A stretch of DNA of 64,000 bases from Escherichia coli (GTDB taxonomy: Bacteria > Pseudomonadota > Gammaproteobacteria > Enterobacterales > Enterobacteriaceae), in NCBI RefSeq assembly GCF_024700885.2, contig NZ_CP117016.1; one strand, written 5' to 3'. Positions 13,401 through 27,782 of the stretch are shown piece after piece (position 1 is the stretch's first letter; each line of letters begins with the position of its first letter). The position numbers were made by a program, and so were the translations under genes. The notes below the pieces were generated by a model. That model did not search any database. It saw only the letters and a program-made list of their open reading frames with translations, and was not told where the DNA came from.

Positions 13401-13597
13401 TGGGGACTTCCACTGCAGGCAGCGGGATGACGTTCTCTCCCTCACAGAATGGCACATCACTGGACCTGCAGGCCGGACTGGAAGCCCGTGTCCGGGAAAA
13501 TATCACCCTGGGCGTTCAGGCCGGTTATGCCCACAGCGTCAGCGGCAGCAGCGCTGAAGGGTATAACGGTCAGGCCACACTGAATGTGACCTTCTGA
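10479..13597 (+). pseudogene. flu: antigen 43 autotransporter, 1-nt deletion frameshift at 12768-12770
   Basis: MKRHLNTCYRLVWNHITGAFVVASELARARGKRGG... through the C-terminal ...GYNGQATLNVTF. The span is 3119 nt (3n-1). The first frame reads ...GIARG (ggg 12768-70). The second frame is open from 12770 as ATPESSGSYGFVRLEGDLLRTEVAGMSVTAG. So a GGGG run appears as GGG. Confidence 0.9.
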
Positions 13598-13617
13598 CAG
13601 AACCATCGCCTCTCTGT

Positions 13618-13642
13618 GGTCCCGGTCATCATGACCGGGACC
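13618..13642 (+). terminator. GC-rich palindrome downstream of flu
   Basis: GGTCCCGGTCAT-c-ATGACCGGGACC lies 20 nt after the flu stop. There is no U-tract, so its function is uncertain. Confidence 0.35.
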
Positions 13643-13717
13643 CGGACCGGCGCAACGGATCTTCAACGCCACATTCGCTGGCATTAACAATAACATGATA
13701 TTCATCACGGAGTGACT

Positions 13718-16234: not shown

Positions 16235-16309
16235 CGGCTATTCTGCGCCTTTTACGCTTTATCACCTGATTTGTCAGTGTCATCGTCATGACTCAGAGAG
16301 GTAAATACC

Positions 16310-16765
16310 ATGATTCACCTGTTCAAAACCTGCATGATTACCGCCTTCATTCTGGGGTTAACGTGGTCTGCCCCACTCCGGGCACAGGATCAACGTTACA
16401 TCAGTATACGCAATACAGATACGATATGGCTCCCGGGAAATATTTGTGCTTACCAGTTCCGGCTGGATAATGGCGGAAACGATGAAGGATTTGGCCCCCT
16501 CACCATCACTCTGCAACTCAAAGACAAATATGGTCAGACGCTGGTGACCAGAAAAATGGAAACGGAAGCCTTTGGTGACAGTAATGCCACGCGAACCACA
16601 GACGCATTTCTGGAAACGGAGTGCGTGGAAAATGTCGCCACAACCGAAATCATTAAAGCAACTGAAGAAAGTAACGGCCATCGTGTCAGTCTGCCGTTAT
16701 CGGTTTTCAATCCCCAGGACTACCATCCACTGCTGATTACCGTTTCCGGAAAAAACGTTAACTGA
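16310..16765 (+). CDS. secreted protein, probably IrmA family
   Basis: The signal peptide is MIHLFKTCMITAFILGLTWSAPLRA/QD. It is 151 aa and followed by a terminator. The IrmA assignment is from memory of annotations downstream of yeeR. Confidence 0.6.
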   Translation: MIHLFKTCMITAFILGLTWSAPLRAQDQRYISIRNTDTIWLPGNICAYQFRLDNGGNDEGFGPLTITLQLKDKYGQTLVTRKMETEAFGDSNATRTTDAFLETECVENVATTEIIKATEESNGHRVSLPLSVFNPQDYHPLLITVSGKNVN

Positions 16766-16790
16766 TCCCTGAAGTCAGTTTCATGCTTCA

Positions 16791-16825
16791 GCCTCTGTCA
16801 CAACGCGTGGCAGAGGCTTTTTATT
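16791..16825 (+). terminator. rho-independent terminator
   Basis: GCCTCTG-tcacaacgcgtgg-CAGAGGC followed by TTTTTATTT. Confidence 0.75.
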
Positions 16826-16843
16826 TATCAGGAGAAAACAGAT

Positions 16844-17077
16844 ATGCCGGGTTACACAGAGTATGTCCTGGCTGAAGGATCTTTCTCATACGGGCAGGCG
16901 GTTGCTGTCATAACCGCTTACCGCAATGTGTTTATCCAGGATGACCCGGGAATGCATTTCCGTCGGGTTATCCGCAACGCGGAAGGTCAGCGACGCTGGC
17001 GCTGCCGGAATTCTGAACCCGATGCCGGAAAGGTGCTTAATACGCGGCTCGCCAGTGACGGTCTTCTCAGACAATAA
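16844..17077 (+). CDS. DUF905-like small protein
   Basis: 77 aa, in the position of DUF905 genes in CP4-type islands (before DUF932). The assignment rests on synteny and memory. Confidence 0.55.
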
Positions 17078-17100
17078 ACGTCATTCATTTCACCCATCAG

Positions 17101-17131
17101 GCCGCGTCTTCTCCGGGAGACGTGGCTTTTT
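17101..17131 (+). terminator. rho-independent terminator
   Basis: 11-bp stem GCCGCGTCTTC / GGGAGACGTGGC with a tetraloop, then TTTTTCATTT. Confidence 0.75.
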
Positions 17132-17176
17132 CATTTATTACACCAGTAAATCTTAACCACCGATAAGGAGCAAATT

Positions 17177-17995
17177 ATGCGACTAGCCAGTCGTTTTGGT
17201 TATGCGAACCAGATACGCCGTGACCGTCCGCTGACACACGAAGAACTGATGCACTATGTGCCGGGGATTTTCGGGGAAGATAAACACACGTCCCGAAGCC
17301 AGAACTATACGTACATCCCCACCATCACCGTACTGGAAAGCCTGCAGCGGGAAGGCTTTCAGCCATTCTTCGCCTGCCAGACCCGTGTGCGCGACCCGGG
17401 CCGCCGGGGATACACAAAACACATGCTGCGTCTGCGGCGGGCCGGAGAGATAAACGGAGAACATGTCCCTGAAATTATTCTGCTCAACTCTCATGACGGT
17501 ACCTCCAGCTACCAGATGCTGCCGGGGTACTTCAGGTTCGTCTGCCAGAACGGCTGCGTCTGTGGTCAGTCTCTGGGGGAAGTACGTGTTCCGCACCGGG
17601 GAAATGTGGTGGACAGAGTCATTGAAGGGGCTTACGAGGTGGTGGGCGTGTTTGACCGGATAGAGGAGAAGCGTGATGCCATGCAGTCGCTGGTCCTGCC
17701 GCCACCGGCACGCCAGGCGCTGGCACAGGCGGCACTGACTTACCGTTATGGTGACGAACATCAGCCCGTCACCACCGCCGACATTCTGACGCCGCGACGC
17801 CGGGAGGATTACGGTAAGGACCTGTGGAGCGCATATCAGACCATCCAGGAGAATATGCTGAAAGGCGGGATTTCCGGTCGCAGTGCAAAAGGAAAACGTA
17901 TCCATACCCGGGCCATTCACAGCATTGATACCGACATTAAGCTCAATCGCGCATTGTGGGTGATGGCAGAAACGATGCTGGAGAGCCTGCGCTGA
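17177..17995 (+). CDS. DUF932 (YfjQ/YafZ-like) protein
   Basis: 272 aa: MRLASRFGYANQIRRDRPLTHEELMHYVPGIFGEDKHTSRSQNYTYIPT... The size and sequence are typical of the UPF0380 YfjQ/YafZ family. Confidence 0.8.
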   Translation: MRLASRFGYANQIRRDRPLTHEELMHYVPGIFGEDKHTSRSQNYTYIPTITVLESLQREGFQPFFACQTRVRDPGRRGYTKHMLRLRRAGEINGEHVPEIILLNSHDGTSSYQMLPGYFRFVCQNGCVCGQSLGEVRVPHRGNVVDRVIEGAYEVVGVFDRIEEKRDAMQSLVLPPPARQALAQAALTYRYGDEHQPVTTADILTPRRREDYGKDLWSAYQTIQENMLKGGISGRSAKGKRIHTRAIHSIDTDIKLNRALWVMAETMLESLR

Positions 17996-18076
17996 TGCCG
18001 TTTCCCTGAGTGAGGGAATCATTCAGCTTTCGTTCCTGAAAAACACACATTTATTTGTTATTTAAGGAGTTATCTC

Positions 18077-18556
18077 ATGAAAACCGTTTCTCAGAATACC
18101 CCCACAATTTATTCAGCTACAACACCAGAGAATAATCCGCCTCAGTTGGTTGCCAGCCTCGTCCCTGATGAACAGCGCATCAGCTTCTGGCCGCAGCATT
18201 TTGGCCTCATTCCACAGTGGGTGACCCTGGAGCCCCGTGTCTTCGGCTGGATGGACCGTCTGTGCGAAGACTACTGCGGTGGTATCTGGAATCTGTACAC
18301 CCTGAACAACGGCGGGGCATTTATGGCACCCGAACCGGATGACGATGATGACGAAACATGGGTACTGTTCAATGCCATGAACGGTAACCGCGCAGAAATG
18401 AGCCCGGAAGCCGCCGGTATTGCCGCCTGTCTGATGACGTACAGTCATCATGCCTGTCGTACGGAGAATTATGCCATGACGGTCCATTATTACCGGTTGC
18501 GGGATTACGCCCTGCAGCATCCGGAATGCAGCGCCATTATGCGCATCATCGACTGA
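18077..18556 (+). CDS. antirestriction protein (YfjX/YafX, ArdB/KlcA-like)
   Basis: ...ISFWPQHFGLIPQWVTLEPRVFGWMDRLCEDYCGGIWNLYTLNNGGAFMAPE... with an acidic DDDDDE tract. Conserved position in the island. Confidence 0.8.
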   Translation: MKTVSQNTPTIYSATTPENNPPQLVASLVPDEQRISFWPQHFGLIPQWVTLEPRVFGWMDRLCEDYCGGIWNLYTLNNGGAFMAPEPDDDDDETWVLFNAMNGNRAEMSPEAAGIAACLMTYSHHACRTENYAMTVHYYRLRDYALQHPECSAIMRIID

Positions 18557-18571
18557 ATGGAGAGAAGCACA

Positions 18572-19048
18572 ATGCAACAACTTTCCTTTCTGCCCGGAGA
18601 GATGACGCCCGGCGAGCGCAGCCTCATTCAACGGGCCCTGAAAACCCTGGACCGCCATCTTCATGAACCCGGCGTGGCCTTCACCTCCACCCGTGCGGCA
18701 CGGGAATGGCTGATTCTGAACATGGCGGGACTGGAGCGTGAAGAGTTCCGGGTGCTGTATCTGAATAACCAGAATCAGCTGATTGCCGGTGAAACCCTCT
18801 TCACCGGCACCATCAACCGCACGGAAGTCCATCCCCGGGAAGTGATTAAACGCGCCCTGTACCACAATGCCGCTGCCGTGGTACTGGCACACAATCACCC
18901 GTCCGGTGAAGTCACACCCAGTAAGGCAGACCGGCTTATCACCGAACGTCTGGTACAGGCACTGGGCCTGGTGGATATCCGGGTGCCGGACCATCTGATA
19001 GTCGGTGGCAACCAGGTTTTCTCCTTTGCCGAACATGGTCTGCTTTAA
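18572..19048 (+). CDS. yeeS: RadC-like JAB-domain protein
   Basis: MQQLSFLPGEMTPGERSLIQRALKTL...VLAHNHPSGEVTPSKADRLIT (JAMM motif H-x-H-P-S-G). Confidence 0.9.
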   Translation: MQQLSFLPGEMTPGERSLIQRALKTLDRHLHEPGVAFTSTRAAREWLILNMAGLEREEFRVLYLNNQNQLIAGETLFTGTINRTEVHPREVIKRALYHNAAAVVLAHNHPSGEVTPSKADRLITERLVQALGLVDIRVPDHLIVGGNQVFSFAEHGLL

Positions 19049-19110
19049 CCCTTCACAACCACATCACACCTGTTTTCACTTTTATCTTCTGTCTTCAGAG
19101 GTATCCCATT

Positions 19111-19332
19111 ATGAAAATTATCACCCGTGGTGAAGCCATGCGTATTCACCAACAACATCCGACATCCCGTCTTTTTCCGTTCTGTACCGGTAAATACCGC
19201 TGGCACGGCAGTGCTGAAGCGTATACCGGTCGTGAAGTGCAGGATATTCCCGGTGTGCTGGCCGTGTTTGCTGAACGCCGTAAGGACAGTTTTGGTCCGT
19301 ATGTCCGGCTGATGAGCGTCACCCTGAACTGA
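19111..19332 (+). CDS. yeeT: DUF987 protein
   Basis: MKIITRGEAMRIHQQHPTSRLFPFCTGKYRWHGSAEAYTGREVQDIPGVLAVFAERRKDSFGPYVRLMSVTLN. Confidence 0.9.
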   Translation: MKIITRGEAMRIHQQHPTSRLFPFCTGKYRWHGSAEAYTGREVQDIPGVLAVFAERRKDSFGPYVRLMSVTLN

Positions 19333-19405
19333 GTGGGAATTCTGATGAGCAGAATTATCGCCACTACCGGACCATTCTTAGCCGATTTTCTGTAAGGATT
19401 TTATC

Positions 19406-19774
19406 GTGTCAGACACACTCCCCGGGACAACACTTCCCGACGACAATCACGACCGCCCCTGGTGGGGGCTGCCCTGCACCGTGACGCCCTGTTTCGGGGC
19501 ACGTCTGGTGCAGGAGGGTAACCGGTTGCATTACCTTGCCGACCGCGCCGGTATCAGAGGCCTGTTCAGCGATGCAGATGCGTACCACCTGGACCAGGCC
19601 TTTCCGCTGCTGATGAAACAACTGGAACTCATGCTCACCAGCGGTGAACTGAATCCCCGCCATCAGCATACCGTCACGCTGTATGCAAAAGGGCTGACCT
19701 GCAAAGCCGATACCCTCAGCAGTTGTGGTTACGTTTATCTGGCTGTTTATCCGACGCCCGAAATGAAAAATTAA
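19406..19774 (+). CDS. cbeA: type IV antitoxin CbeA (YeeU)
   Basis: GTG start. MSDTLPGTTLPDDNHDRPWWGLPCTVTPCFGARLVQEGNRLHYLADRAGIRG...YPTPEMKN. Confidence 0.9.
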   Translation: MSDTLPGTTLPDDNHDRPWWGLPCTVTPCFGARLVQEGNRLHYLADRAGIRGLFSDADAYHLDQAFPLLMKQLELMLTSGELNPRHQHTVTLYAKGLTCKADTLSSCGYVYLAVYPTPEMKN

Positions 19775-19862
19775 CTCTCCAGAATAGCCTTCTGCTACGG
19801 CCTGGTGTTTTCACCACGCCACTTTTCCATTTTTATATCTGCATATCAGGAAAATCTTCAGT

Positions 19863-20057
19863 ATGAAAACATTACCTGTATTACCCGGGCAGGCGGCCAG
19901 TTCTCGCCCGTCTCCTGTTGAAATCTGGCAGATACTGCTGTCCCGACTGCTGGACCAGCACTATGGCCTCACACTGAATGACACACCTTTTGCCGATGAA
20001 CGTGTGATTGAGCAGCATATTGAGGCAGGCATTTCACTGTGTGATGCGGTGAACTGA
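19863..20057 (+). pseudogene. cbtA: cbtA (yeeV) toxin gene, 5' half (codons 1-64) truncated by prophage insertion
   Basis: [64 protein letters not shown], then TGA supplied by the first 3 nt of the prophage. The reading continues at 57175 (FLVEKYALVRTD...). Confidence 0.9.
20049..20054. repeat. target-site duplication, left copy (GTGAAC)
   Basis: The identical hexamer occurs at 57175-57180. Both are cbtA codons Val-Asn. Confidence 0.8.
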
Positions 20058-20099
20058 TGCGCCGCGCGATAAATGCACTCTATCTTGTGCGATAAATGG
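20055..20099 (+). repeat. prophage terminal repeat, late-gene end (putative transposase binding sites)
   Basis: TGATGCGCCGCGCGATAAATGCACTCTATCTTGTGCGATAAATGG. Position-for-position it matches the reverse complement of the other end: TGAT at 1-4, G(C/A)GATAAATG at 12-21, GTG(C/A)GATA at 33-40. Confidence 0.75.
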
Positions 20100-20132
20100 C
20101 ATCCACGCGGCGTTTCATTATTTGAAAAAGAA

Positions 20133-20705
20133 TTACATTTCAGGTTGCGTTATGACAGTCCCAACAGGGTGATAGCGGTAGATCGTTGACAGTCCAATAT
20201 CATAGATAATTGCCAGCCGCTTTCTGTCATACCCTTTCTGGAGCAATCTTGCGATCTGCTCATGCTGCTCCTTCGTCAGTTTCGGGCGACGTCCTCCAAC
20301 TCTTCCTTGTGCTCGCGCAGCAGCCAGTCCAGCCAGCGTGCGCTCAACTATCAGTTCACGCTCCATTTCTGCCAGTGCACCCATCATATGAAAAAAGAAC
20401 CTTCCCATCGGAGTGCTGGTATCGATTGAATCCGTCAGACTGCGAAAATTGACACCTTTTGCGCGTAGCTCTTCTGTGAGAGCAATGAGGTGTTTCATTC
20501 TTCTACCCAACCGATCCAGCTTCCAGACCACCAATGTATCCCCTCTTTTAAGGCACTTTAAAGCGCGTTTCAGGCCTGGTCGTTCCGACTTGGTTCCGCT
20601 CATTTTGTCCTCAAAAATCTGTTCACATCCTGCGCACATTAATGCATTGCGTTGCAAATCTGTGTTTTGGTCATTTGTTGACACACGTATGTAGCCAATC
20701 AGCAT
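20133..20705 (-). CDS. Gin/Pin/Cin/Hin-family serine DNA invertase
   Basis: MLIGYIRVSTNDQNTDLQRNALMCAGCEQIFEDKMSGTKSERPGLKRALKCLKRGDTLVVWKLDRLGR... is near-identical in pattern to Mu Gin. Start taken at ATG 20705. Confidence 0.92.
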   Translation of the reverse strand: MLIGYIRVSTNDQNTDLQRNALMCAGCEQIFEDKMSGTKSERPGLKRALKCLKRGDTLVVWKLDRLGRRMKHLIALTEELRAKGVNFRSLTDSIDTSTPMGRFFFHMMGALAEMERELIVERTLAGLAAARAQGRVGGRRPKLTKEQHEQIARLLQKGYDRKRLAIIYDIGLSTIYRYHPVGTVITQPEM

Positions 20706-20759
20706 TAAAAATACTCCCTTTTGAGTGGTTAAAGTACTGAGATAATGTGGGGAGGATTT

Positions 20760-20785
20760 GAGAGATAAACGTTGGTTTGGGGGAA
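20760..20785 (+). other. invertase crossover site A (gix/hix-like, 26 bp)
   Basis: GAGAGATAAACG-TT-GGTTTGGGGGAA. The right half-site is shared with sites B and C. It is in inverted orientation relative to site C. Confidence 0.7.
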
Positions 20786-21205
20786 GGCTCGGCGCTGCCC
20801 GTTGGTGTACCTGTTCCGTGGCCCACTGCCACACCGCCAGCAGGCTGGTTAAAGTGCGACGGGCGCGCCTTTACAAAAGAACAATATCCTGTTCTGGCCA
20901 GAGTCTACCCGACCCTCCGTCTTCCCGATTTGCGCGGTGAGTTTATCCGTGGATGGGACGACGGGCGAAAAGTGGATACAGGGCGCGATCTGCTTTCACG
21001 GCAGGATGGTACAAGTTTTTCTCATTACGCAGGTAATTTTGACATTGGGTCTGGTCATTCAATCAATAACTATGACCAAATCCTTGACAACCAACCTGGA
21101 TTCTCCCGTTTTTCATTTGCAGGTCCTTCGCGAGGCGATGGGGTTAATTATGTGACCATTCGTCCCCGTAACATTGCGTTTAATTACATCGTAAGGGCGG
21201 CATAG
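20777..21205 (+). other. silent alternative tail-fibre C-terminal cassette A (no start codon or promoter of its own)
   Basis: In frame from the crossover site: LGEGSALPVGVPVPWPTATPPAGWLKCDGRAFTKEQYPVLARVYPTLRLPDLRGEFIRGWDDGRKVDTGR (tail-collar-type motif), then a unique end ...RPRNIAFNYIVRAA*. The frame is closed upstream by TGA at 20759-61. The first ~200 nt are nearly identical to the inverted segment 22600-22815. Confidence 0.8.
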
Positions 21206-21224
21206 AAACGTTGGTTTGGGGGAA
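21199..21224 (+). other. invertase crossover site B (gix/hix-like, 26 bp)
   Basis: GGCATAGAAACG-TT-GGTTTGGGGGAA. Direct repeat of site A, inverted relative to site C. Confidence 0.7.
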
Positions 21225-21677
21225 GGCTCTGCATTGCCTGTTGGTGTACCGGTTCCATGGCCCACCGCCACACCGCCAGCAGGCTGGTTACAGTGCAACG
21301 GAGCTACGTTCACCAAAGAACAATATCCTGTTCTGGCCAGAGTCTACCCGACCCTCCGTCTTCCCGATTTGCGCGGTGAGTTTATCCGTGGATGGGACGG
21401 TGGTCGCAAGGTTGATACCGGGCGTGCGCTACTTTCATTTCAGGAAGGGACTATCGTATCCGGTTTTGATGATAATGATACCGGAGATATCAGTTCGCTC
21501 GGCTCTACACAATACGGATTTGGTGACGCTTTAACCTCTAATCAACTGGGGGTCTTAAATGGCAAAAAGTGGATATTTGATGCATCCTCTAAAGGTGCAC
21601 AAAGATATGACTGGTGGGCTTATGTATCAGCTCGCCCCCGCAATATCGCATTTAACTATATCGTGAGGGCGGCGTGA
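21216..21677 (+). other. silent alternative tail-fibre C-terminal cassette B
   Basis: GEGSALPVGVPVPWPTATPPAGWLQCNGATFTKEQYPVLARVYPTLRLPDLRGEFIRGWDGGRKVDTGR..., with a different distal part, ending ...RPRNIAFNYIVRAA*. Confidence 0.8.
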
Positions 21678-21683
21678 TACCGT

Positions 21684-22298
21684 TCAGCCGGCAAGCGCCA
21701 GTGGCGCTTCCGGCCAGCTGATTTCAGGTGCCTTGCTGATATCCAGTGCGTTCAGCTCGTCGATATAATCCAGCACGGCGTTCAGTTTTGCCGTTTCTTC
21801 TGGTTTCAGACTGCGACCAGCACGCAGTTTGAGGTTGATAAGATCGACGGACGCCATCGCCTGTTTCACCCGTTGCTGGCGTTGCTGTCTGGCAACCTCC
21901 AGTTCTGCGGCTCGCTGCCGTTCAGTATCGGTTACCCACGCCTCACCGTTCCAGGTATCCCATGGCGTGGCTGGCTGTTTTGTGGTGGTGTCCGCCGGGT
22001 AATCACCCGGTTGGGTAATCAGAACGGGGTTACCGTTCTCCGTGCTGTATACCGTCTCGCCGCGGTGATCAGGCACATGCTCCCACCCGTTCAGCGTGGC
22101 AGTCCGGCAAACCACGTAACCCGAAATTGCTTCCGGCGGTGCATCGGCGCACGAATGTGCCGGAGTACCCACCCCAAGGGCGAGATACTCCACAGAGGAT
22201 GAGGTGTATTCCCGGGTTTCCTCGTCATAGTGATATACAGTGATATCGCCCGCTACAGTGGCGATACCGTTTTCATCCAGAACTGCAGTGTTACTCAT
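21684..22298 (-). CDS. tail fibre assembly (chaperone) protein
   Basis: 204 aa. The ATG overlaps the fibre stop (TAATG). ...GWEHVPDHRGETVYSTENG...WNGEAWVTD...ISWPEAP is the usual Tfa/gpG/U pattern. Confidence 0.85.
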   Translation of the reverse strand: MSNTAVLDENGIATVAGDITVYHYDEETREYTSSSVEYLALGVGTPAHSCADAPPEAISGYVVCRTATLNGWEHVPDHRGETVYSTENGNPVLITQPGDYPADTTTKQPATPWDTWNGEAWVTDTERQRAAELEVARQQRQQRVKQAMASVDLINLKLRAGRSLKPEETAKLNAVLDYIDELNALDISKAPEISWPEAPLALAG

Positions 22299-23971
22299 TA
22301 AACTGCCCTCACAATGTAATTAAGTGCAATGCTACGGGGTCTGACAGTGATACCCTTCGCATACCCGCTTCTGATAGAGGTCAGAATAGTAGCCTGCATA
22401 CCATTGTCTGACATTGCCACGACAGGATCGCTGAATGTTGTCCCGTCCGGCATTTTAAAGCTGCCCTCACGAAGGTCTGTAATGGAATCTTCATTGTTGA
22501 ATCCCATGCCGACTATCCCCGAGGTTCCCGTAGTGTCCTGGTTATAATAATCCAGCATTGCTGTTCTTAACAGCGTTGCCCCTTGTGCGGACAGCAACTT
22601 ACGTCCTGTATCAACTTTGCGCCCGTCGTCCCATCCACGGATAAACTCACCGCGTAAATCGGGAAGACGGAGGGTCGGGTAGACTCTGGCCAGAACAGGA
22701 TATTGTTCTTTTGTAAAGGCGCGCCCGTCGCACTTTAACCAGCCTGCTGGCGGTGTGGCGGTGGGCCACGGAACAGGCACACCAACGGGTAGCGCCGAGC
22801 CTTCTCCTAAACCAAGGTAATTGAGGACATCTTTTATACTGCCCTTAGCGATAATAGCGCGACCAATAGCTGTAAGGGTTGCCAGCTCTGCGCGGTCTGC
22901 TCCGGTAAAATAAGGCAACCGATCTGCTGCAGTGGCAAGTCCTGCCAGAGCAGTGAGCGTGGCATCTGCCGGTTGTTTTCCGTTTGCCAGATCGTATGCA
23001 GCCTTGACCGCTTTCGGTGTGGCGGCCAGTATTTCAGACGTGCTGTTGATGGCACTGCTCAATTGTACGGTGCCTTTTGCCGTCAGCGAGGCAGCAGGCA
23101 CTCCCGTTATCTGACTCCACGGGTGAGTGTGGCTGACGGGCGCCTTGCCGGCTGCAAGGTCGTATGCAGCCTTGACCGCCTTCGGCGTGGCAGCCTCAGT
23201 TTCTGATTGACTGTCCGTGGCGCTGCTCAGTTGTACGGTGCCTTTTGCCGTCAGCGAGGCAGCAGGCACTCCCGTTATCTGACTCCACGGGTGAGTGTGG
23301 CTGACGGGCGCCTTGCCGGCTGCAAGGTCGTATGCAGCCTTGACGGCCTTTGGTGTGGCGGCCAGCGTTTCAGAGGTGCTGTTGGTGTCACTGCTCAATT
23401 GTACGGTGCCTTTTGCCGTCAGCGAGGCAGCAGGCACTCCCGTTATCTGACTCCACGGGTGAGTGTGGCTGACGGGCGCCTTGCCGGCTGCAAGGTCGTA
23501 TGCAGCCTTGACCGCCTTCGGCGTGGCAGCCTCAGTTTCTGATTGACTGTCCGTGGCGCTGCTCAGTTGTACGGTGCCTTTTGCCGTCAGCGAGGCAGCA
23601 GGCACTCCCGTTATCTGACTCCACGGGTGAGTATGGCTGACGGGGGCCTTGCCGGCAGCCAGGTCATATGCAGCCTTGACGGCCTTTGGTGTGGCGGCCA
23701 GCGTTTCAGAGGTGCTGTTGGTGGCACTGCTCAGTTGGGTGAACCCCTTAGCTGTCAGTGTCGCGTCCGGGTGGTTACGGGAACGTACGTGTTCAGCCAG
23801 TGACTGTGCGGCTTCCTCCGTTTTTTTCTTCAGCCATTTCGTCCTGTTTGCCAGTTGCCGGGGGGCTCGATTTGATATCCCGTCTGCACCACCCAGAACC
23901 GGATCTGATGTCTCCAGTTGATAGATATTTTCTTCCCACTTTTCTGTTTCATTCAGGTTTCCCATAATCAA
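22298..23971 (-). CDS. tail fibre protein (constant N-terminal part + currently expressed C-terminal cassette C)
   Basis: 557 aa with repeated TAKGTVQLSSAT.S.SET.AATPKAVKAAYDLA fibre repeats. The C-terminal 168 aa follow crossover site C, starting LGEGSALPVGVPVPWPTATPPAGWLKCDG... and ending ...RPRSIALNYIVRAV*. Confidence 0.9.
   Translation of the reverse strand: MIMGNLNETEKWEENIYQLETSDPVLGGADGISNRAPRQLANRTKWLKKKTEEAAQSLAEHVRSRNHPDATLTAKGFTQLSSATNSTSETLAATPKAVKAAYDLAAGKAPVSHTHPWSQITGVPAASLTAKGTVQLSSATDSQSETEAATPKAVKAAYDLAAGKAPVSHTHPWSQITGVPAASLTAKGTVQLSSDTNSTSETLAATPKAVKAAYDLAAGKAPVSHTHPWSQITGVPAASLTAKGTVQLSSATDSQSETEAATPKAVKAAYDLAAGKAPVSHTHPWSQITGVPAASLTAKGTVQLSSAINSTSEILAATPKAVKAAYDLANGKQPADATLTALAGLATAADRLPYFTGADRAELATLTAIGRAIIAKGSIKDVLNYLGLGEGSALPVGVPVPWPTATPPAGWLKCDGRAFTKEQYPVLARVYPTLRLPDLRGEFIRGWDDGRKVDTGRKLLSAQGATLLRTAMLDYYNQDTTGTSGIVGMGFNNEDSITDLREGSFKMPDGTTFSDPVVAMSDNGMQATILTSIRSGYAKGITVRPRSIALNYIVRAV
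22802..22827 (+). other. invertase crossover site C (gix/hix-like, 26 bp) inside the expressed fibre gene
   Basis: TTCTCCTAAACC-AA-GGTAATTGAGGA. Compare the remembered gix sequence TTCCTGTAAACC-GA-GGTTTTGGATAA. Confidence 0.7.
22985..23755 (-). repeat. in-frame tandem repeats in tail fibre gene (168-nt unit, 336-nt higher-order unit, ~4.6 copies)
   Basis: The 56-aa unit TAKGTVQLSSATDSQSETEAATPKAVKAAYDLAAGKAPVSHTHPWSQITGVPAASL alternates with a ...SSDTNSTSETLAAT... variant. Long stretches are nucleotide-identical (e.g. 23207-23542 versus the following 336 nt). Confidence 0.9.
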
Positions 23972-24546
23972 CTGCTCCCGTGGTTATAACTGCCATCATG
24001 GATGGCGGTATTGTTATAGCGAATGGCCACAGACTGATACTCCAGGCTGGCCAGATGGCAGCGGGCCGGTGCAAATGCAGCGAGCGTCTGACGCAGCATC
24101 GCGGCCTGATCGTTAGTAATGGGCTGTTTCAGAATAACGCGATAAACTGCCCAAGCGGCTGCATCTCCATGAACAAACAGTCCGTTATAGCTGCGATTGC
24201 CGTCGTAACTGAGACGACCTGTGCCTTCAATCAGATCCACTTCACCAAAGCCAAAACGGCGGATAACTTCCCGGATTGACCACGGCGTCCCTTTATACCG
24301 GTGCAGTTCGATGGCTGCTTTTATAAGCATGCGGCGAACATCGTCCGATTCCGCCAGCTCCCAGCCATCGCCAGACAGTGAGAACTGCTCGCCCAGCCAT
24401 GGCAGCGCGGAACTGTCGACGATATCGACGAGAAAGACCATCAGTACGCTCAGGTCGATGTTATCCAGCCGTCCTGCCAGTCTTCCCAGCGTCCTGAGAC
24501 TGATATCACCCTCAAGCGGTGGCGGGAGTTGTAATGGCTCAGTCAT
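23968..24546 (-). CDS. P2 gpI-like baseplate/tail protein
   Basis: 192 aa ...ALPWLGEQFSLSGDGWELAESDDVRRMLIKAAIELHRYKGTPWSIREVIRRFGFGEV..., the typical tail protein I pattern. It lies between the J-like gene and the fibre gene. Confidence 0.8.
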   Translation of the reverse strand: MTEPLQLPPPLEGDISLRTLGRLAGRLDNIDLSVLMVFLVDIVDSSALPWLGEQFSLSGDGWELAESDDVRRMLIKAAIELHRYKGTPWSIREVIRRFGFGEVDLIEGTGRLSYDGNRSYNGLFVHGDAAAWAVYRVILKQPITNDQAAMLRQTLAAFAPARCHLASLEYQSVAIRYNNTAIHDGSYNHGSS

Positions 24547-25642
24547 CAGACACTCCAGTCATGTTAAGAGTGATTGCCGTACAGTTTGCCCATTCGTTTT
24601 CTGCCACCACCCGCAGTGCCGGTGTCACCAGTTCAACCTGGTACACCCCGGAAACGGACAATGCACTGATAATCTGGCTGGGGACAATATCGCGCCCCAG
24701 CGTGGCGGCACGTGATGCCACCCAGTTCTGTATGGCGCTGTTAGCGGCATCTTTTACAGACCTGGCATCCTGATCACGATAGATCGTAATCTTGGCTTCA
24801 ATGGTGTAATCCACCTTCACTGGTGTTTTAGCCCGCACTGTATCAGTGAGTGGCCTGACTTTCTCATCAGAGCAGAAACTCTCTACCAGCGTGAGAACAC
24901 CGCCGTCCGGCAGACCGGTACTGAGCAGCGGATACAGATCTACGGTCCCGGGAACCGGGGAAAGCACAGCAACATCGACAATGTTGGGATGGGCCTGCAT
25001 GGCATGAAAGCGGTATGCGCCACGGCTTCCGGCATTGGTGAATGACTCCGGGGCCAGCCTGATACGCTCCCGGAGCCTGTCATCGTCTTCCTGTTCTGAA
25101 CCGCCGGAACTGGCCGTCAGATTGCTCACCAGCAGGTCGACGTTATCAATCTCATCGAGTAACTGACTGACCTGCGCAGGTTGCCAGCCGTTACCAGCGG
25201 TACCGGGTTCGGTACAGGTGGACGTGACATTGACCAGCAGCAATCCGGCCTTCAGTACCACATCTGTATCGGTGGCAAAAATAACGCTGTCGGAAGCGCT
25301 GACGCGGGTGCCTGCCGGGATCAGCACATCAATGGCCAGTGCCTCATCTACGGAGAACTGGAGCGTGGTAGTGGCAGGCTGCGCGGCAAGACGGTATACA
25401 CCGACCAGTTCACCGAGGTAATCAATCATCGGCTCACGGGCAAAGGCGACCAGATTCTGCTTTGCTGCCTCCTGTACCGCAACCCTGACCAGCATTTCGC
25501 GATAGGCCCACAGATCAATCAGCAGACGTTCTGCCTGTGCCGGGTACAGCGTTTTGCCGGTATCCGCTTCATACTTCGCAATCATTTCTGCCGTGATTTT
25601 GTCGGCATCGCGTTCAATAAAATCGGGTTCTGTCAGCGCCAT
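24539..25642 (-). CDS. baseplate J-like protein
   Basis: 367 aa in the position between the W/gp25-like and I-like genes. ...FTNAGSRGAYRFHAMQAHPNIVDVAV... is typical of gpJ. Confidence 0.8.
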   Translation of the reverse strand: MALTEPDFIERDADKITAEMIAKYEADTGKTLYPAQAERLLIDLWAYREMLVRVAVQEAAKQNLVAFAREPMIDYLGELVGVYRLAAQPATTTLQFSVDEALAIDVLIPAGTRVSASDSVIFATDTDVVLKAGLLLVNVTSTCTEPGTAGNGWQPAQVSQLLDEIDNVDLLVSNLTASSGGSEQEDDDRLRERIRLAPESFTNAGSRGAYRFHAMQAHPNIVDVAVLSPVPGTVDLYPLLSTGLPDGGVLTLVESFCSDEKVRPLTDTVRAKTPVKVDYTIEAKITIYRDQDARSVKDAANSAIQNWVASRAATLGRDIVPSQIISALSVSGVYQVELVTPALRVVAENEWANCTAITLNMTGVSDD

Positions 25643-25980
25643 AGCAGCTCCTGAGTCCGGGTCTGTCCGTCTGAGCCTTTCCAGCTCACCCGGAGCGTAA
25701 GATGTTCGCCGTCGACGGCGGGTTTAACTGACATAAGCTGGCAGCGGGGCTCCCAGCGCCGGATGGCATCGACGGATTCGCGCACCACATGCGGAATGGC
25801 CCGGTCTACAGGCCAGTCGATATAAAGATGCAGATTGCTGCCGAACTCCGGGCGATGCGGGTCGCTGCCGCGGGGAGTCCGCAGGATAATTTGAATCGCC
25901 TGCCGGATATCATCCAGCCCCCGGACAATTTCGCCGGGAGCCTGCAGGGTCGGTTGCCAGAATACTGAGGTTGTTTTCAT
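25633..25980 (-). CDS. GPW/gp25-family baseplate protein
   Basis: 115 aa ...IRQAIQIILRTPRGSDPHRPEFGSNLHLYIDWPVD... Confidence 0.8.
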   Translation of the reverse strand: MKTTSVFWQPTLQAPGEIVRGLDDIRQAIQIILRTPRGSDPHRPEFGSNLHLYIDWPVDRAIPHVVRESVDAIRRWEPRCQLMSVKPAVDGEHLTLRVSWKGSDGQTRTQELLWR

Positions 25981-26034
25981 GGGGGCAGTATTGCCCCCGT
26001 GCGGGAACGCTGATATTAAAGGCGTTTAAAAAGC

Positions 26035-26631
26035 TCAGTGGGAGTGGTGGCTGGAGTTTTCGCCATCAGACAACATACTGCCCGTGGCATGGGCATTCCC
26101 TTTAATCTCGATATTGCCATGGATGGTCGCGGTAACACCTTCACCACCAGAACCCGCCATGCCTCCTTCGTAAATCAGCTTACCCCTGACACGCAGATCT
26201 CCGGTAAGTTCGGTTTCCGGTGCGTCAATCGTGGCTTTCTGTGTTTTCAATACCACATCAGCACCACACTCAATGACAATATGCTCAATGCCGCCCCGGA
26301 TGGTCAGAGTGTGCGTCTTCCGGTTGTAGCTGTACTCTGCACCATCAGCAAACCGGGTTCCCCGGATATTTTTGTCACTGAACGGTGGTTTATCGACGTC
26401 TGAATACACCGCGCCCAGAATAACACCATCCTCGCCGTTGGCATCGAGCAGCACCTCAACCTGCTCCCCCACGTCAGGGAGCCAGTAATCTTTGTTATCC
26501 TGGGTATTGCGCTGCAGCACGTTAAGCCAGTTTGTGCGCAGGTTATCGCATTCAGGCAGACGAACGCGGGCCTGAACCCTGTCGGCATCAACGGCACTGA
26601 CCGTACCGACCTGACGAGTGACACCAGTCAT
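26035..26631 (-). CDS. baseplate assembly protein V (spike)
   Basis: MTGVTRQVGTVSAVDADRVQARVRLPECDNLRTNWLNVLQRNTQDNKDYWLPDVGEQVEVLLDANGEDGVILGAVYS... Confidence 0.8.
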   Translation of the reverse strand: MTGVTRQVGTVSAVDADRVQARVRLPECDNLRTNWLNVLQRNTQDNKDYWLPDVGEQVEVLLDANGEDGVILGAVYSDVDKPPFSDKNIRGTRFADGAEYSYNRKTHTLTIRGGIEHIVIECGADVVLKTQKATIDAPETELTGDLRVRGKLIYEGGMAGSGGEGVTATIHGNIEIKGNAHATGSMLSDGENSSHHSH

Positions 26632-27782
26632 TTTTTCTTCTCCTTAATCACCGTCGATGTACTGCCATCCGGGTGATAAACCGTGAGTTTCTGAGTTTTT
26701 TGTTTTTTCCCTCTTGTGACTGGCCCCCGTGCCACTTCCAGCTCTGTGGTGTAGCCGCTGTTACGGTCAAACGCATGGCGGGCAGTGGTTATGAGCCATG
26801 GCCCGGATAACTGCCCAAAACCCACCAGTTCAATTTTGTTGCCTGCTGTCAGTTGAGGTGTTCCCGTCAGCGTCAGGGAGCCGTTCTGCTGGTATTCGTT
26901 ATGTCTGGCCAGTGCTGAATCCGCTTTAATCCGGGCACTGTCCGGGTCGCTGACGCGGCTGTTAACTTTAAGTGAGTCAGCGCTGGTAACCTTACCACCT
27001 TTGAGCTTTTTGTCGCTTTCACGGGTACCACCATCAGCTTCGTAGACGATCAGTTTTTTACTGCTGCTTTTCTGGTGTTTTACCTTTGCAGATTTATAGA
27101 CCCGGTTGATGGTGTCACGCAGGGAAAAGCGGGCCACATCCTGCGGTTTTAACTGCCTGACCGGCTCCTGACTGCGCAGTGTGGCCAGATGAGAAAAAAT
27201 CAGCTGGTCACTGACCACTTTCACTGCATAACCATACTCGCTGGCCAGCCGGCGCAGAAAACCCACGTCGGTTTCAGCATACTGGGTCACCCGGTCGATT
27301 CTGATGGACTCAATGCTGCCCACCAGTTTCAGTCGGTGCTTTCTGGCAATCCGCCCCGCAACAGCTGCCAGCGTGGTGTTCTCAAAACCACGACTGGTTT
27401 TAGTCCGCAGGGCACTGTTAACCGAGGTGGCCACCCCACGGATAGAAACAACGGAAGCGGGCGAACTCACTTCGATCTCGTCTATAGAGAACGTACCGCA
27501 GGACAGCAGCTTCTCGCCCTGATAGCCCATTTTCAGCGTCAGCGTGTCACCCTTGCCCGGATACCATTTATCCAGCCAGCGGCCATCGGTGTCGTCCAGC
27601 TCCACCTCAATGGTATCGGACTCATTTTTGATGTTATCGCTCCAGGTCACACGGGTGACATAAGGCGCGATATCAGAGGTGATGTTTTTCTGCAGATACC
27701 ACAAAGTGAACACCGGTGTCAGCACATCGCTGACGCCGGTTAACGCTGATGTGACTTGCGCAGTGCTGTTTATCTCAGCCAT
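26628..27782 (-). CDS. late control D-like / baseplate hub protein (Mu gp44-like)
   Basis: 384 aa, in the conserved position between the X-like and V-like genes. Assignment by position and general resemblance. Confidence 0.7.
   Translation of the reverse strand: MAEINSTAQVTSALTGVSDVLTPVFTLWYLQKNITSDIAPYVTRVTWSDNIKNESDTIEVELDDTDGRWLDKWYPGKGDTLTLKMGYQGEKLLSCGTFSIDEIEVSSPASVVSIRGVATSVNSALRTKTSRGFENTTLAAVAGRIARKHRLKLVGSIESIRIDRVTQYAETDVGFLRRLASEYGYAVKVVSDQLIFSHLATLRSQEPVRQLKPQDVARFSLRDTINRVYKSAKVKHQKSSSKKLIVYEADGGTRESDKKLKGGKVTSADSLKVNSRVSDPDSARIKADSALARHNEYQQNGSLTLTGTPQLTAGNKIELVGFGQLSGPWLITTARHAFDRNSGYTTELEVARGPVTRGKKQKTQKLTVYHPDGSTSTVIKEKKK

What the first reader, a model, noticed from the sequence alone, without database searches (positions are those of the whole stretch)
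20133..22827. Three-cassette, three-site invertible tail-fibre system with one Gin-type invertase and a single chaperone gene
The expressed fibre gene (minus strand) contains a 26-bp hix/gix-like site C (22802-22827). Two sites with the same conserved half (GGTTTGGGGGAA) lie inverted relative to C at 20760-20785 (A) and 21199-21224 (B). Each precedes a promoterless, start-less plus-strand cassette that is in frame with the crossover point. All three cassettes begin with the same ~70 codons (LGEGSALPVGVPVPWPTATPPAGW...RGEFIRGWD.GRKVDTGR, a tail-collar-like motif, ~200 nt near-identical at DNA level), then diverge completely, then end alike (RPR.IA.NYIVRA.). Inversion CxB or CxA would swap the receptor-binding tip among three alternatives. 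Mu G and P1 C segments have two alternatives, each with its own chaperone. Here only cassette C is followed by a co-oriented tail fibre assembly gene (21684-22298), which would be turned antisense after either inversion. A and B are direct repeats, so they can only be exchanged through nested inversions. The ~200-bp homology also allows RecA-mediated inversion.
Basis: partly seen in the sequence, partly recalled or inferred. Interest (0 to 1): 0.6.

Follow-up and report, generated by a model that had tools for sequence, protein, structure and literature searches.

The report
Three-site invertible phage tail-fibre switch
A prophage in this E. coli window carries a Gin-type DNA-flipping switch with three crossover sites that swaps the tip of its tail fibre among three versions. 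The switch is real and active in nature, but it is the same element already reported as prophage Phi2 of the ST131 strain EC958.

Summary
Three 26-bp gix/hix-like sites lie at 20760-20785 (A), 21199-21224 (B) and 22802-22827 (C). Each is followed by about 229 nt of shared sequence and then by an in-frame alternative 3' end for the tail-fibre gene. Next to them is a Gin-like serine invertase (77% identical to Gin) and a single tfa gene.

Inversion is real. Among 5,426 complete E. coli genomes the predicted fibre-C, fibre-B and fibre-A junctions occur in about 283, 166 and 158 genomes. All four predicted DNA isomers exist. In every isomer I examined, the half-sites are exchanged exactly at the TT core. 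The deposited genome most like the window (MLI114) differs from it by inversion of 21208-22815.

It is not new. Sites C and A are printed, letter for letter, as the crossover sites of EC958 prophage Phi2, whose inversion was seen in PacBio reads (PMC4134206). Multi-site serine-invertase shufflons are known from Min of p15B.

Two points add to the published description: the internal site B is used, and there is only one chaperone gene. Cassette B never has tfa in sense. Whether tips A and B need Tfa remains untested.

The parts
20133..20705 (-). Serine DNA invertase gene (190 aa) of the Gin/Cin/Pin family
   Evidence: Pfam Resolvase 8e-51 plus HTH_7. E = 2e-93 to the Gin structures 4M6F and 3UJ3. 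Local identity to Gin is 77%. In a global alignment it is 74% identical to Gin, 72% to Cin, 76% to PinE and 99% to the invertase of a P1-like plasmid. It has Ser9 and the residues K46, R47, K50, Q150, R153 and L154, which PMC3798978 names as specific to Fis-dependent invertases.
20616..20687 (-). Probable recombinational (Fis) enhancer, nt 19-90 of the invertase gene
   Evidence: It aligns without gaps to the enhancer annotated in P1 cin (nt 19-90 of cin). Identity is 75%, against 64% for the next 210 nt. Two G-N13-C 15-mers have centres 49 bp apart, the first 95.5 bp from the site A core. Fis binding was not tested.
20760..20785 (+). Crossover site A (invertase-proximal), core TT at 20772-20773
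   Evidence: It lies in register with Mu gixR relative to the invertase start codon. It is identical to 'Phi2_3prime' in Table 3 of PMC4134206.
20772..21205 (+). Cassette A: silent alternative 3' end of the fibre gene (Collar domain, 72-aa variable part, stop at 21203-21205)
   Evidence: The fibre-A fusion junction occurs in about 158 genomes. pN/pS is 0.16 against the P1-like plasmid copy.
21199..21224 (+). Crossover site B (internal), core TT at 21211-21212; it overlaps the stop codon of cassette A
   Evidence: It is used in nature: the S1 and S3 isomers carry B-left/C-right hybrid sites. It is not listed in Table 3 of PMC4134206.
21211..21677 (+). Cassette B: silent alternative 3' end of the fibre gene (Collar domain, 83-aa variable part)
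   Evidence: The fibre-B fusion junction occurs in about 166 genomes, up to 100% identical. pN/pS is 0.15.
21684..22298 (-). The only tail fibre assembly (Tfa) gene. Its start overlaps the fibre gene stop (TAATG). It is convergent with cassette B, 6 bp apart.
   Evidence: Pfam Caudo_TAP 5.6e-27. It is 51% and 38% identical to the Tfa proteins that follow A-like tips in phages 500465-2 and mEp043.
22298..22815 (-). Cassette C: the 3' end of the fibre gene that is expressed in the window's isomer (S0)
   Evidence: phmmer matches the T4 gp37 tip 2XGF (collar, 4.7e-14, plus the C-terminal NIAFNYIVR).
22802..22827 (-). Crossover site C inside the fibre gene, core at 22814-22815
   Evidence: It is identical to 'Phi2_5prime' in Table 3 of PMC4134206.
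22816..23965 (-). Constant 5' part of the tail-fibre gene (Phage_fiber_2 repeats), including a 168-bp tandem repeat at 22985-23737
   Evidence: Pfam Phage_fiber_2, 5 stretches. Tandem repeat of 4.5 copies. The ST131 copies have two fewer units.
23968..27782 (-). Upstream baseplate genes in Mu-type order (gpD-like, V, W, J, I). They supply late transcription into the fibre gene.
   Evidence: Pfam Phage_GPD, Phage_base_V, Baseplate_J and Tail_P2_I. The annotation of homologous loci agrees.

Best explanation
This is the tail-fibre host-range switch of a prophage with a Mu-type contractile tail. It is the same element as prophage Phi2 ('Entero_P88'-like) of E. coli ST131.

How it works: a Gin-family serine invertase, probably with host Fis bound to an enhancer in the 5' end of its own gene, recombines the 26-bp site C inside the fibre gene with either of two oppositely oriented sites, A or B.

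The three sites divide the region into two invertible blocks:
- block a = cassette A;
- block b = cassette B + tfa + cassette C.

This gives four interconvertible DNA isomers:
- S0: fibre-C, then tfa in sense.
- S1: fibre-B, tfa antisense.
- S2: fibre-A, then B, tfa antisense.
- S3: fibre-A, then C, then tfa in sense.

The four isomers encode three alternative fibre C-termini. Each tip is a T4-gp37-type tip: a collar domain, a variable receptor-binding insert, and a conserved C-terminal strand.

What is shown: the anatomy, the reading frames, the existence of all four isomers, and exchange exactly at the core.

What is inferred: Fis and enhancer dependence, the change of host range, and how tips A and B obtain a chaperone.
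For: Anatomy and protein families.

Invertase:
- 77% identical to Gin, E = 2e-93.
- It carries the residues reported as unique to Fis-dependent invertases (PMC3798978).
- Site A is in register with Mu gixR.
- Its 5' region is homologous to the annotated P1 cin enhancer.

Predicted junctions in 5,426 complete E. coli genomes:
- fibre-C: 283 genomes.
- fibre-B: 166 genomes.
- fibre-A: 158 genomes.
- invertase-B junction, diagnostic of S3: 109 genomes.

Isomers seen directly:
- S0: strain p11B.
- S1: strains LS4 and MLI114.
- S2: strain p11A.
- S3: strain AR_0086.
- Each has an intact fibre reading frame and reciprocal half-site exchange at the core.

Switching within lineages:
- p11A and p11B are blood isolates from Houston whose chromosomes differ in length by 5 bp. 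They are in S2 and S0 respectively.
- MLI114 is the only genome sharing the window's invertase/cbtA junction. It differs from the window by inversion of exactly 21208-22815, at 99.94% identity.

Other support:
- In the recombinants, the 240 nt after the core are purely donor-type.
- The silent cassettes are under purifying selection: pN/pS 0.15-0.16 against a P1-like plasmid copy.
- Published physical evidence: about 2-kb alternative-orientation PacBio contigs for EC958 Phi2 with these exact sites (PMC4134206), and PCR confirmation of inversions in the 'Entero_P88' prophage of ST131 isolates (bioRxiv 10.1101/2022.05.07.487787).
Against: - No experiment here or in the cited papers shows that this particular invertase, rather than another Pin- or Gin-like enzyme in the same cell, catalyses the reaction. 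Forde et al. argue for action in trans at another prophage.
- Fis dependence rests on homology only.
- No host-range data exist for any of the three tips.
- It is not shown that this prophage still makes virions.
- The genome counts use an 80% coverage threshold. ST131 is clonal, so the counts are not independent events, and related modules on P1-like plasmids may contribute a few.
- In isomers S1 and S2 the only tfa gene is antisense to the late operon, and no sigma-70-like promoter was found in 19900-24100. These states may therefore yield poorly assembled fibres.
Confidence: 0.9

Rival explanations
1. The inversions are produced mainly by RecA-dependent homologous recombination between the roughly 229-nt inverted repeats. 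On this view the 26-bp sites and the invertase are incidental or dead.
For: The repeats are long and similar enough for RecA: 93% and 86% identical, with a 104-nt uninterrupted identical stretch between A and C.
Against: In all four recombinant loci examined (L001, L002, L008, L009), the exchange lies between the left half-site and the first distinguishing base, 6 nt after the core. The following 240 nt are purely A-type (1 difference) or B-type (0 differences), with no mosaics. The invertase gene is intact and nearly identical across hosts. Forde et al. saw about 50% switching at another EC958 prophage of the same kind during routine growth.
Confidence: 0.04
2. Only cassette C, with its adjacent tfa, gives a working fibre. 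Cassettes A and B still recombine, but they are chaperone-less relics. Isomers S1 and S2, and perhaps S3, would then be non-productive 'off' states and not alternative host ranges.
For: - There is a single tfa gene, antisense in S1 and S2.
- No internal promoter was detected.
- A-like tips in the working phages mEp043 and 500465-2 are each followed directly by their own tfa.
- T4 gp37, whose tip is homologous, needs the chaperones gp57A and gp38 (PMC9608196).
- The N-terminal domain of Tfa proteins is the fibre-specific part (PMC9608196), and that half is the least conserved between this Tfa and those paired with A-like tips.
Against: - Cassettes A and B keep intact frames in every locus examined.
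- Synonymous changes greatly exceed non-synonymous ones against a P1-like plasmid copy: 21 to 10 and 13 to 6, pN/pS about 0.15. Relics would not show this.
- The same one-tfa architecture is maintained on two unrelated phage backbones.
- S3 offers cassette A with tfa in sense, 8 nt downstream of a GAGGG Shine-Dalgarno-like motif.
- The window's Tfa belongs to the same family as those paired with A-like tips, at 51% identity.
Confidence: 0.2
3. The alternative arrangements in databases are assembly artefacts caused by the repeats, not biological isomers.
For: The repeats (229 nt, and 168-nt tandem units) can mislead short-read assemblers.
Against: The collection holds only 'complete genome' assemblies. 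The four arrangements are exactly those allowed by the site orientations. The hybrid sites are reciprocal. Forde et al. excluded adapter or hairpin artefacts for the PacBio contigs, and the preprint confirmed the switches by PCR and restriction digest.
Confidence: 0.01

Closest known systems
Prophage Phi2 of E. coli O25b:H4-ST131 EC958 (Forde et al. 2014, PMC4134206), also called the 'Entero_P88' prophage in ST131 'Bone' isolates (bioRxiv 10.1101/2022.05.07.487787)
   Same: It is the same element. Table 3 of the paper lists TCCTCAATTACCTT GGTTTAGGAGAA and GAGAGATAAACGTT GGTTTGGGGGAA, which are sites C and A here. It reports a 2,067-bp invertible segment (here 20760-22827 = 2,068 bp) and a 227-bp imperfect inverted repeat. 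The EC958 genome matches the window's fibre-C junction 100% at the published coordinates. Inversion was seen in PacBio reads and by PCR.
   Different: - The paper's table lists two sites, and the general legend describes a mirror-image layout with a cognate 'minor tail fibre gene' for each allele. Here there is a third, internal site B, four isomers and a single tfa.
- The window's copy has two more 56-aa shaft repeats.
- The window's copy abuts a CP4-like island instead of aroA.
Min multiple-inversion system (shufflon) of the P1-related plasmid p15B
   Same: One Gin-family serine invertase acts on more than two crossover sites, and nested inversions join one constant fibre 5' part to several alternative 3' ends (as described in PMC6109161). 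A 94%-identical copy of the window's three-cassette module sits in P1-like phage-plasmids of about 90 kb.
   Different: From my own knowledge, not tested here: Min has six sites and more cassettes.
Gin / G segment of phage Mu, and Cin / C segment of P1
   Same: - The invertase is 74-77% (Gin) and 72% (Cin) identical.
- The sites have the same layout: 12 + 2 + 12 nt.
- The invertase-proximal site sits at the same distance from the invertase start as Mu gixR.
- The enhancer-homologous stretch is at the same place in the gene as in cin.
- The baseplate and fibre gene order is Mu-type.
   Different: - Mu and P1 have two sites and two alternatives, each with its own chaperone (S-U / U'-S'). Here there are three sites, three tips and one chaperone.
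- The tips here are of the collar / T4-gp37 type, not the Mu S type.
Invertible fibre module of P2-like phage 500465-2 (NC_049343), and Pin / P segment of e14
   Same: Each has a Gin-family invertase beside a fibre gene. The 500465-2 invertase is 82% identical, and its expressed tip is 62% identical to cassette A. e14 PinE is 76% identical.
   Different: Both keep the classical mirror layout with two tfa genes (fibre-tfa | tfa'-fibre').
R64-type shufflon (Rci) and the Rin shufflon of Bifidobacterium prophages
   Same: They follow the same logic: several cassettes are shuffled onto one constant 5' part.
   Different: Those systems use tyrosine recombinases and different sites (PMC6109161). Here the enzyme is a serine recombinase.

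Membership tests
Fis/enhancer-dependent serine DNA invertase systems (Gin, Cin, Pin, Hin, Min) | Small serine recombinase: an N-terminal catalytic domain with the nucleophilic serine, and a C-terminal HTH | tested here: met
   Pfam Resolvase 8e-51 plus HTH_7 1e-12. Ser9 lies in RVSTNDQ. E = 2e-93 and 77% identity to Gin.
Fis/enhancer-dependent serine DNA invertase systems (Gin, Cin, Pin, Hin, Min) | Residues reported as conserved only in Fis-dependent invertases (Hin K47, R48, K51 on helix B; Q151, R154, L155 on DBD helix 1; PMC3798978) | tested here: met
   The equivalent residues K46, R47, K50, Q150, R153 and L154 are all present. The offset of +1 relative to Hin numbering is fixed by the 1HCR match.
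Fis/enhancer-dependent serine DNA invertase systems (Gin, Cin, Pin, Hin, Min) | 26-bp crossover sites (two 12-bp half-sites around a 2-bp core) with identical cores, in inverted orientation around the segment | tested here: met
   All three sites have a TT core when read towards the cassette, and a GGTTTRGGRGAA half-site resembling the gix half GGTTTACAGGAA. C is inverted relative to A and B. They agree with the published consensus (Table 3 of PMC4134206).
Fis/enhancer-dependent serine DNA invertase systems (Gin, Cin, Pin, Hin, Min) | Recombinational enhancer with two Fis sites in the 5' end of the invertase gene | tested here: inconclusive
   Nt 19-90 of the gene align without gaps to the annotated P1 cin enhancer. 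Identity is 75%, against 64% downstream. Two G-N13-C 15-mers lie 49 bp apart, about 96 bp from site A. Protein-coding constraint could explain much of this conservation. Fis binding cannot be tested here.
Fis/enhancer-dependent serine DNA invertase systems (Gin, Cin, Pin, Hin, Min) | The segment is actually found in both orientations, with conservative exchange at the core | tested here: met
   All four isomers occur in complete genomes, with reciprocal hybrid sites. Published PacBio and PCR evidence agrees.
Multiple-inversion (shufflon-type) fibre systems of the Min kind | More than two crossover sites served by one serine invertase, giving more than two alternative 3' ends by nested inversions | tested here: met
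   Three sites, three in-frame cassettes, and four isomers observed, including the nested product S3.
Multiple-inversion (shufflon-type) fibre systems of the Min kind | Orthology of the invertase and cassettes to p15B Min itself | not tested
   The p15B (X62121) and pJIE250-3 (MN510445) sequences are not in the collections. The only related fact is that a 99%-identical invertase and a 94%-identical module occur in P1-like plasmids.
Classical two-cassette fibre switch (Mu G, P1 C, e14 P) | Two alternatives in mirror image, each tip followed by its own co-inverted assembly gene | tested here: not met
   There is one Caudo_TAP gene for three tips. Cassette A's stop codon overlaps site B, and cassette B's stop is 6 bp from the convergent tfa stop, so there is no room for further tfa genes. 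Mu, P1 and e14 each show two.
T4 gp37-type fibre tip (collar domain ... C-terminal NIAFNYIVR strand) | Sequence homology of the collar and of the extreme C-terminus to the gp37 tip | tested here: met
   phmmer to 2XGF gives 4.7e-14 over the collar. The weak second stretch PRSIALNYIVR / KNIAFNYIVR lies at the C-terminus of both proteins. Pfam Collar is found in all three cassettes. The three-dimensional structure was not modelled.
Tyrosine-recombinase shufflons (Rci of R64, Rin) | The recombinase belongs to the tyrosine family | tested here: not met
   The recombinase is a serine resolvase/invertase.

The most novel reading that the evidence does not exclude
The switch controls chaperone supply as well as tip identity. 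Of the four DNA isomers, only S0 and S3 place the single tfa gene in the late operon. S1 (tip B) and S2 (tip A) do not.

Two readings follow. Either tips A and B of this gp37/collar family can trimerise without a co-expressed Tfa, or with a Tfa borrowed from another prophage; that would be unusual for this fibre class. Or S1 and S2 are programmed 'fibre-off or crippled' states. In the second case tip A has both a productive and a non-productive isomer, and tip B depends on help supplied in trans.
Probability: 0.2. Interest if true: 0.45.

Novelty: already known. Interest (0 to 1): 0.22.

Why it matters
Its practical value is modest.

- This prophage is carried by the pandemic ST131 lineage and, as a module, by P1-like phage-plasmids. 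Its fibre region is a frequent source of assembly and annotation errors. PGAP splits the intact fibre gene into pseudogene fragments, and the silent cassettes are annotated as separate 'phage tail proteins'.
- The full map of three sites and four isomers allows these loci to be annotated correctly. It also shows that strain-to-strain differences here are phase variation, not phylogenetic signal.
- The one open biological point is the single chaperone gene for three tips. It gives a compact natural system for testing whether Tfa proteins are tip-specific and strictly required for collar/gp37-type tips.

Tried and rejected
- Internal promoter for tfa. A consensus scan of 19900-24100 found no sigma-70-like sites, against 2.9 expected. 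There is therefore no support for independent tfa transcription. The scan is crude and does not cover phage late promoters.
- Solved structure for this Tfa. There was no meaningful PDB match by sequence.
- Primary papers on Min and on serine invertases (PMC206102, PMC4384473). They are not held. Statements about p15B rest on PMC6109161 and on my own knowledge.
- pJIE250-3 (MN510445), wanted so that its Min-like invertase could be compared. It is not in the collections.
- B-like tips in sequenced phages, wanted to see whether they carry their own tfa. Only the ST131 prophage record and two weak hits (41-42% identity) were found, so this is not informative for B.
- Structure prediction of the tips. 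I considered it and did not run it. A monomer model of an intertwined trimeric tip from a shallow alignment would not settle whether a chaperone is needed.
- Decayed relics. I rejected the idea that cassettes A and B are decayed, because of their intact frames and pN/pS of about 0.15.
- Chance similarity of the sites. I rejected this as well.

Full report
**1. What is in the sequence**

The minus strand of 20133-27782 carries a Mu-type tail and baseplate block. The Pfam matches are gpD-like, V, W (by position), J and I.

It is followed by a tail-fibre gene (22298-23965, 555 aa from the ATG). This gene has five Phage_fiber_2 repeats and a C-terminal Collar domain. A Caudo_TAP tail fibre assembly gene (21684-22298) follows; its ATG overlaps the fibre stop (TAATG).

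Downstream, on the plus strand, lie two start-less open frames (cassettes A and B). Each has a Collar domain and ends ...RPRNIAFNYIVRAA. After them, on the minus strand again, comes a 190-aa serine recombinase gene (20133-20705).

- A = GAGAGATAAACG TT GGTTTGGGGGAA.
- B = GGCATAGAAACG TT GGTTTGGGGGAA.
- C (reverse complement) = TCCTCAATTACC TT GGTTTAGGAGAA.

The 14-nt motif occurs three times in the window, against 0.07 expected by chance. After each core come about 229 nt of shared sequence: C/A 93% identical, C/B 86%, A/B 87%. Splicing the constant fibre part to cassette A or B at the core gives complete in-frame proteins.

**2. The recombinase and its control elements**

The invertase matches the Gin crystal-structure sequences at E = 2e-93. 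Local identity to Gin is 77%. In a global alignment it is 74% identical to Gin, 72% to Cin of P1, 76% to PinE of e14, 82% to the invertase of P2-like phage 500465-2, and 99% to that of a P1-like phage-plasmid.

It has the catalytic Ser9. It also has the residues that McLean et al. (PMC3798978) report as conserved only among Fis/enhancer-dependent invertases: K46, R47, K50, Q150, R153 and L154 in this protein's numbering.

Site A lies in register with Mu gixR relative to the invertase start codon. Nucleotides 19-90 of the gene align without gaps to the stretch annotated in the P1 genome as the Cin enhancer. This stretch is 75% identical, against 64% for the following 210 nt. It holds two G-N13-C 15-mers 49 bp apart, the first about 96 bp from the core of site A. 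That fits an enhancer, but coding constraint could produce much of the signal, so I rate this feature as inconclusive.

**3. Does it invert?**

I built the junctions predicted for recombination at the core and searched them against 5,426 complete E. coli genomes. The counts below use at least 80% coverage of each query:

| Junction | Genomes |
|---|---|
| fibre-C | 283 |
| fibre-B | 166 (several at 100% identity) |
| fibre-A | 158 |

Three sites with C opposed to A and B define two invertible blocks: a = cassette A, and b = cassette B + tfa + cassette C. They predict four isomers, connected as a square:
- S0: fibre-C, tfa in sense.
- S1: fibre-B.
- S2: fibre-A followed by B.
- S3: fibre-A followed by C and tfa in sense.

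The junction diagnostic of S3 (invertase flank joined to cassette B) occurs in 109 genomes.

I fetched an example of each isomer: S0 in p11B, S1 in LS4 and MLI114, S2 in p11A, and S3 in AR_0086. In every one:
- the fibre reading frame is intact;
- the half-sites are recombined reciprocally, exactly as exchange at the TT core predicts;
- the 240 nt after the core are purely A-type (1 difference) or B-type (0 differences), and the first base that could reveal a more distal crossover lies 6 nt after the core.

This argues strongly for site-specific recombination over homologous recombination, even though A and C share a 104-nt uninterrupted identical stretch.

Two comparisons show switching within a lineage:
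- p11A and p11B are Houston blood isolates whose chromosomes differ in length by 5 bp. They are in S2 and S0.
- The only genome that shares the window's unusual invertase/cbtA junction is MLI114. It is collinear with the window except that 21208-22815 is inverted, at 99.94% identity.

**4. It has been described before**

Forde et al. 2014 (PMC4134206) found spurious PacBio contigs in EC958. They traced them to inversion of tail-fibre segments in prophages Phi1, Phi2 and Phi4.

Their Table 3 gives the Phi2 crossover sites as TCCTCAATTACCTT GGTTTAGGAGAA and GAGAGATAAACGTT GGTTTGGGGGAA. These are sites C and A here. The table also reports a 2,067-bp invertible segment and a 227-bp imperfect inverted repeat. 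The EC958 chromosome matches my fibre-C junction 100% at those coordinates.

A preprint on ST131 'Bone' isolates confirmed reversible inversions in this 'Entero_P88' prophage by PCR and restriction digest.

Serine-invertase systems with more than two sites that shuffle fibre 3' ends are also known. The Min shufflon of p15B is described in PMC6109161. The element is therefore already known, and the class is a textbook one.

My analysis adds three things: the internal site B is functional, the isomer space has four states, and the layout departs from the mirror-image 'each allele with its cognate minor fibre gene' scheme given in that paper's general legend.

**5. The single chaperone**

Mu, P1, e14 and phage 500465-2 all carry two assembly genes, one per tip. 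Here there is one, and there is no space for others. The stop codon of cassette A overlaps site B, and the stop of cassette B is 6 bp from the convergent tfa stop.

It misses S3, where cassette A is fused to the fibre gene and tfa lies downstream in sense. There tfa sits 8 nt downstream of a GAGGG Shine-Dalgarno-like motif contained in the conserved cassette ending. From the counts, S3 (about 109 genomes) is commoner than S2 (about 49, by subtraction). In a silent prophage this reflects recombination history and clonal sampling, not selection for function. Cassette B can never be co-oriented with tfa, because both lie in block b.

Are A and B real genes?
- Against a P1-like plasmid copy of the module (94% identical over 20700-21700, cassettes A and B), cassette A shows 21 synonymous and 10 non-synonymous differences. 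Cassette B shows 13 and 6. pN/pS is about 0.15 for both.
- Both frames are intact in all loci.
They are therefore maintained coding sequences.

Do such tips need a Tfa?
- A-like tips (59-62% identical) in the working phages mEp043 and 500465-2 are each followed immediately by a Caudo_TAP gene.
- The tips are homologous to the T4 gp37 tip: the collar and the C-terminal NIAFNYIVR both match 2XGF. Folding of gp37 needs gp57A and gp38 (PMC9608196).
- The window's Tfa is 51% and 38% identical to the Tfa proteins paired with A-like tips. The C-terminal half is well conserved and the N-terminal half, the fibre-binding part according to PMC9608196, is more divergent.
- No sigma-70-like promoter that could drive tfa independently was found.

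It is therefore plausible that one Tfa serves all three tips. It is equally plausible that S1 and S2 give poorly assembled fibres. Sequence alone cannot decide this.

**6. Verdict**

It needs correcting on the fourth isomer and on the role of RecA. The system is a Gin-family, Min-like three-site fibre shufflon identical to EC958 prophage Phi2, so it is already known. The remaining interest is low to moderate and is confined to the chaperone asymmetry.

**7. Context noted**

- In the window the prophage end next to the invertase abuts a 3'-truncated cbtA of a CP4-like island, where ST131 genomes have aroA.
- The fibre shaft carries 4.5 copies of a 168-bp repeat, two units more than the ST131 copies.
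- Divergence from the P1-like plasmid copy is mosaic. The invertase and cassette C differ by less than 1%, while synonymous divergence is 0.20 for cassette A, 0.13 for B and 0.07 for tfa.

Noticed in passing
window 22985-23737: The fibre shaft contains a 168-bp (56-aa, Phage_fiber_2) tandem repeat of 4.5 copies. ST131 copies of the same gene are 336 bp (two units) shorter, so shaft length varies between strains independently of the tip switch.
   Followed up: partly
window 19863-20133: The prophage end beside the invertase is joined, about 80 bp past the invertase stop, to a 3'-truncated cbtA toxin gene of a CP4-like island (Ag43, antirestriction, JAB/RadC-like, DUF987, cbeA). In ST131 genomes the same prophage end abuts aroA. 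The window's junction occurs in only 1 of 5,426 complete genomes (MLI114).
   Followed up: partly
window 20133-22815 versus L004 (plasmid p13ZX28-90) 4434-7113: The whole three-cassette module is also present in P1-like phage-plasmids of about 90 kb, and divergence is mosaic. The invertase and cassette C differ by less than 1%, but synonymous divergence is 0.20 for cassette A, 0.13 for B and 0.07 for tfa. This suggests recent exchange of parts of the module between unrelated phage backbones.
   Followed up: partly
L001, L002, L007 (ST131 and other RefSeq genomes), fibre gene: PGAP annotates the intact fibre gene as two or three 'incomplete' pseudogene fragments, and annotates the silent cassettes as free-standing 'phage tail protein' genes. 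The reading frame is in fact uninterrupted in every isomer (415-443 aa).
   Followed up: yes
L004 5499-5524: In the P1-like plasmid copy, the internal site has a C-type right half (GGTTTAGGAGAA) and a different left half (CGGCATGAAACG). This is consistent with past B x C exchange in that lineage.
   Followed up: no
window 12300-16300 (by homology to L009): In the MLI114 RefSeq record (L009), which is collinear with the window over 12300-21425, the adjacent island carries an Ag43 autotransporter gene annotated as frameshifted. The equivalent window stretch was not examined.
   Followed up: no
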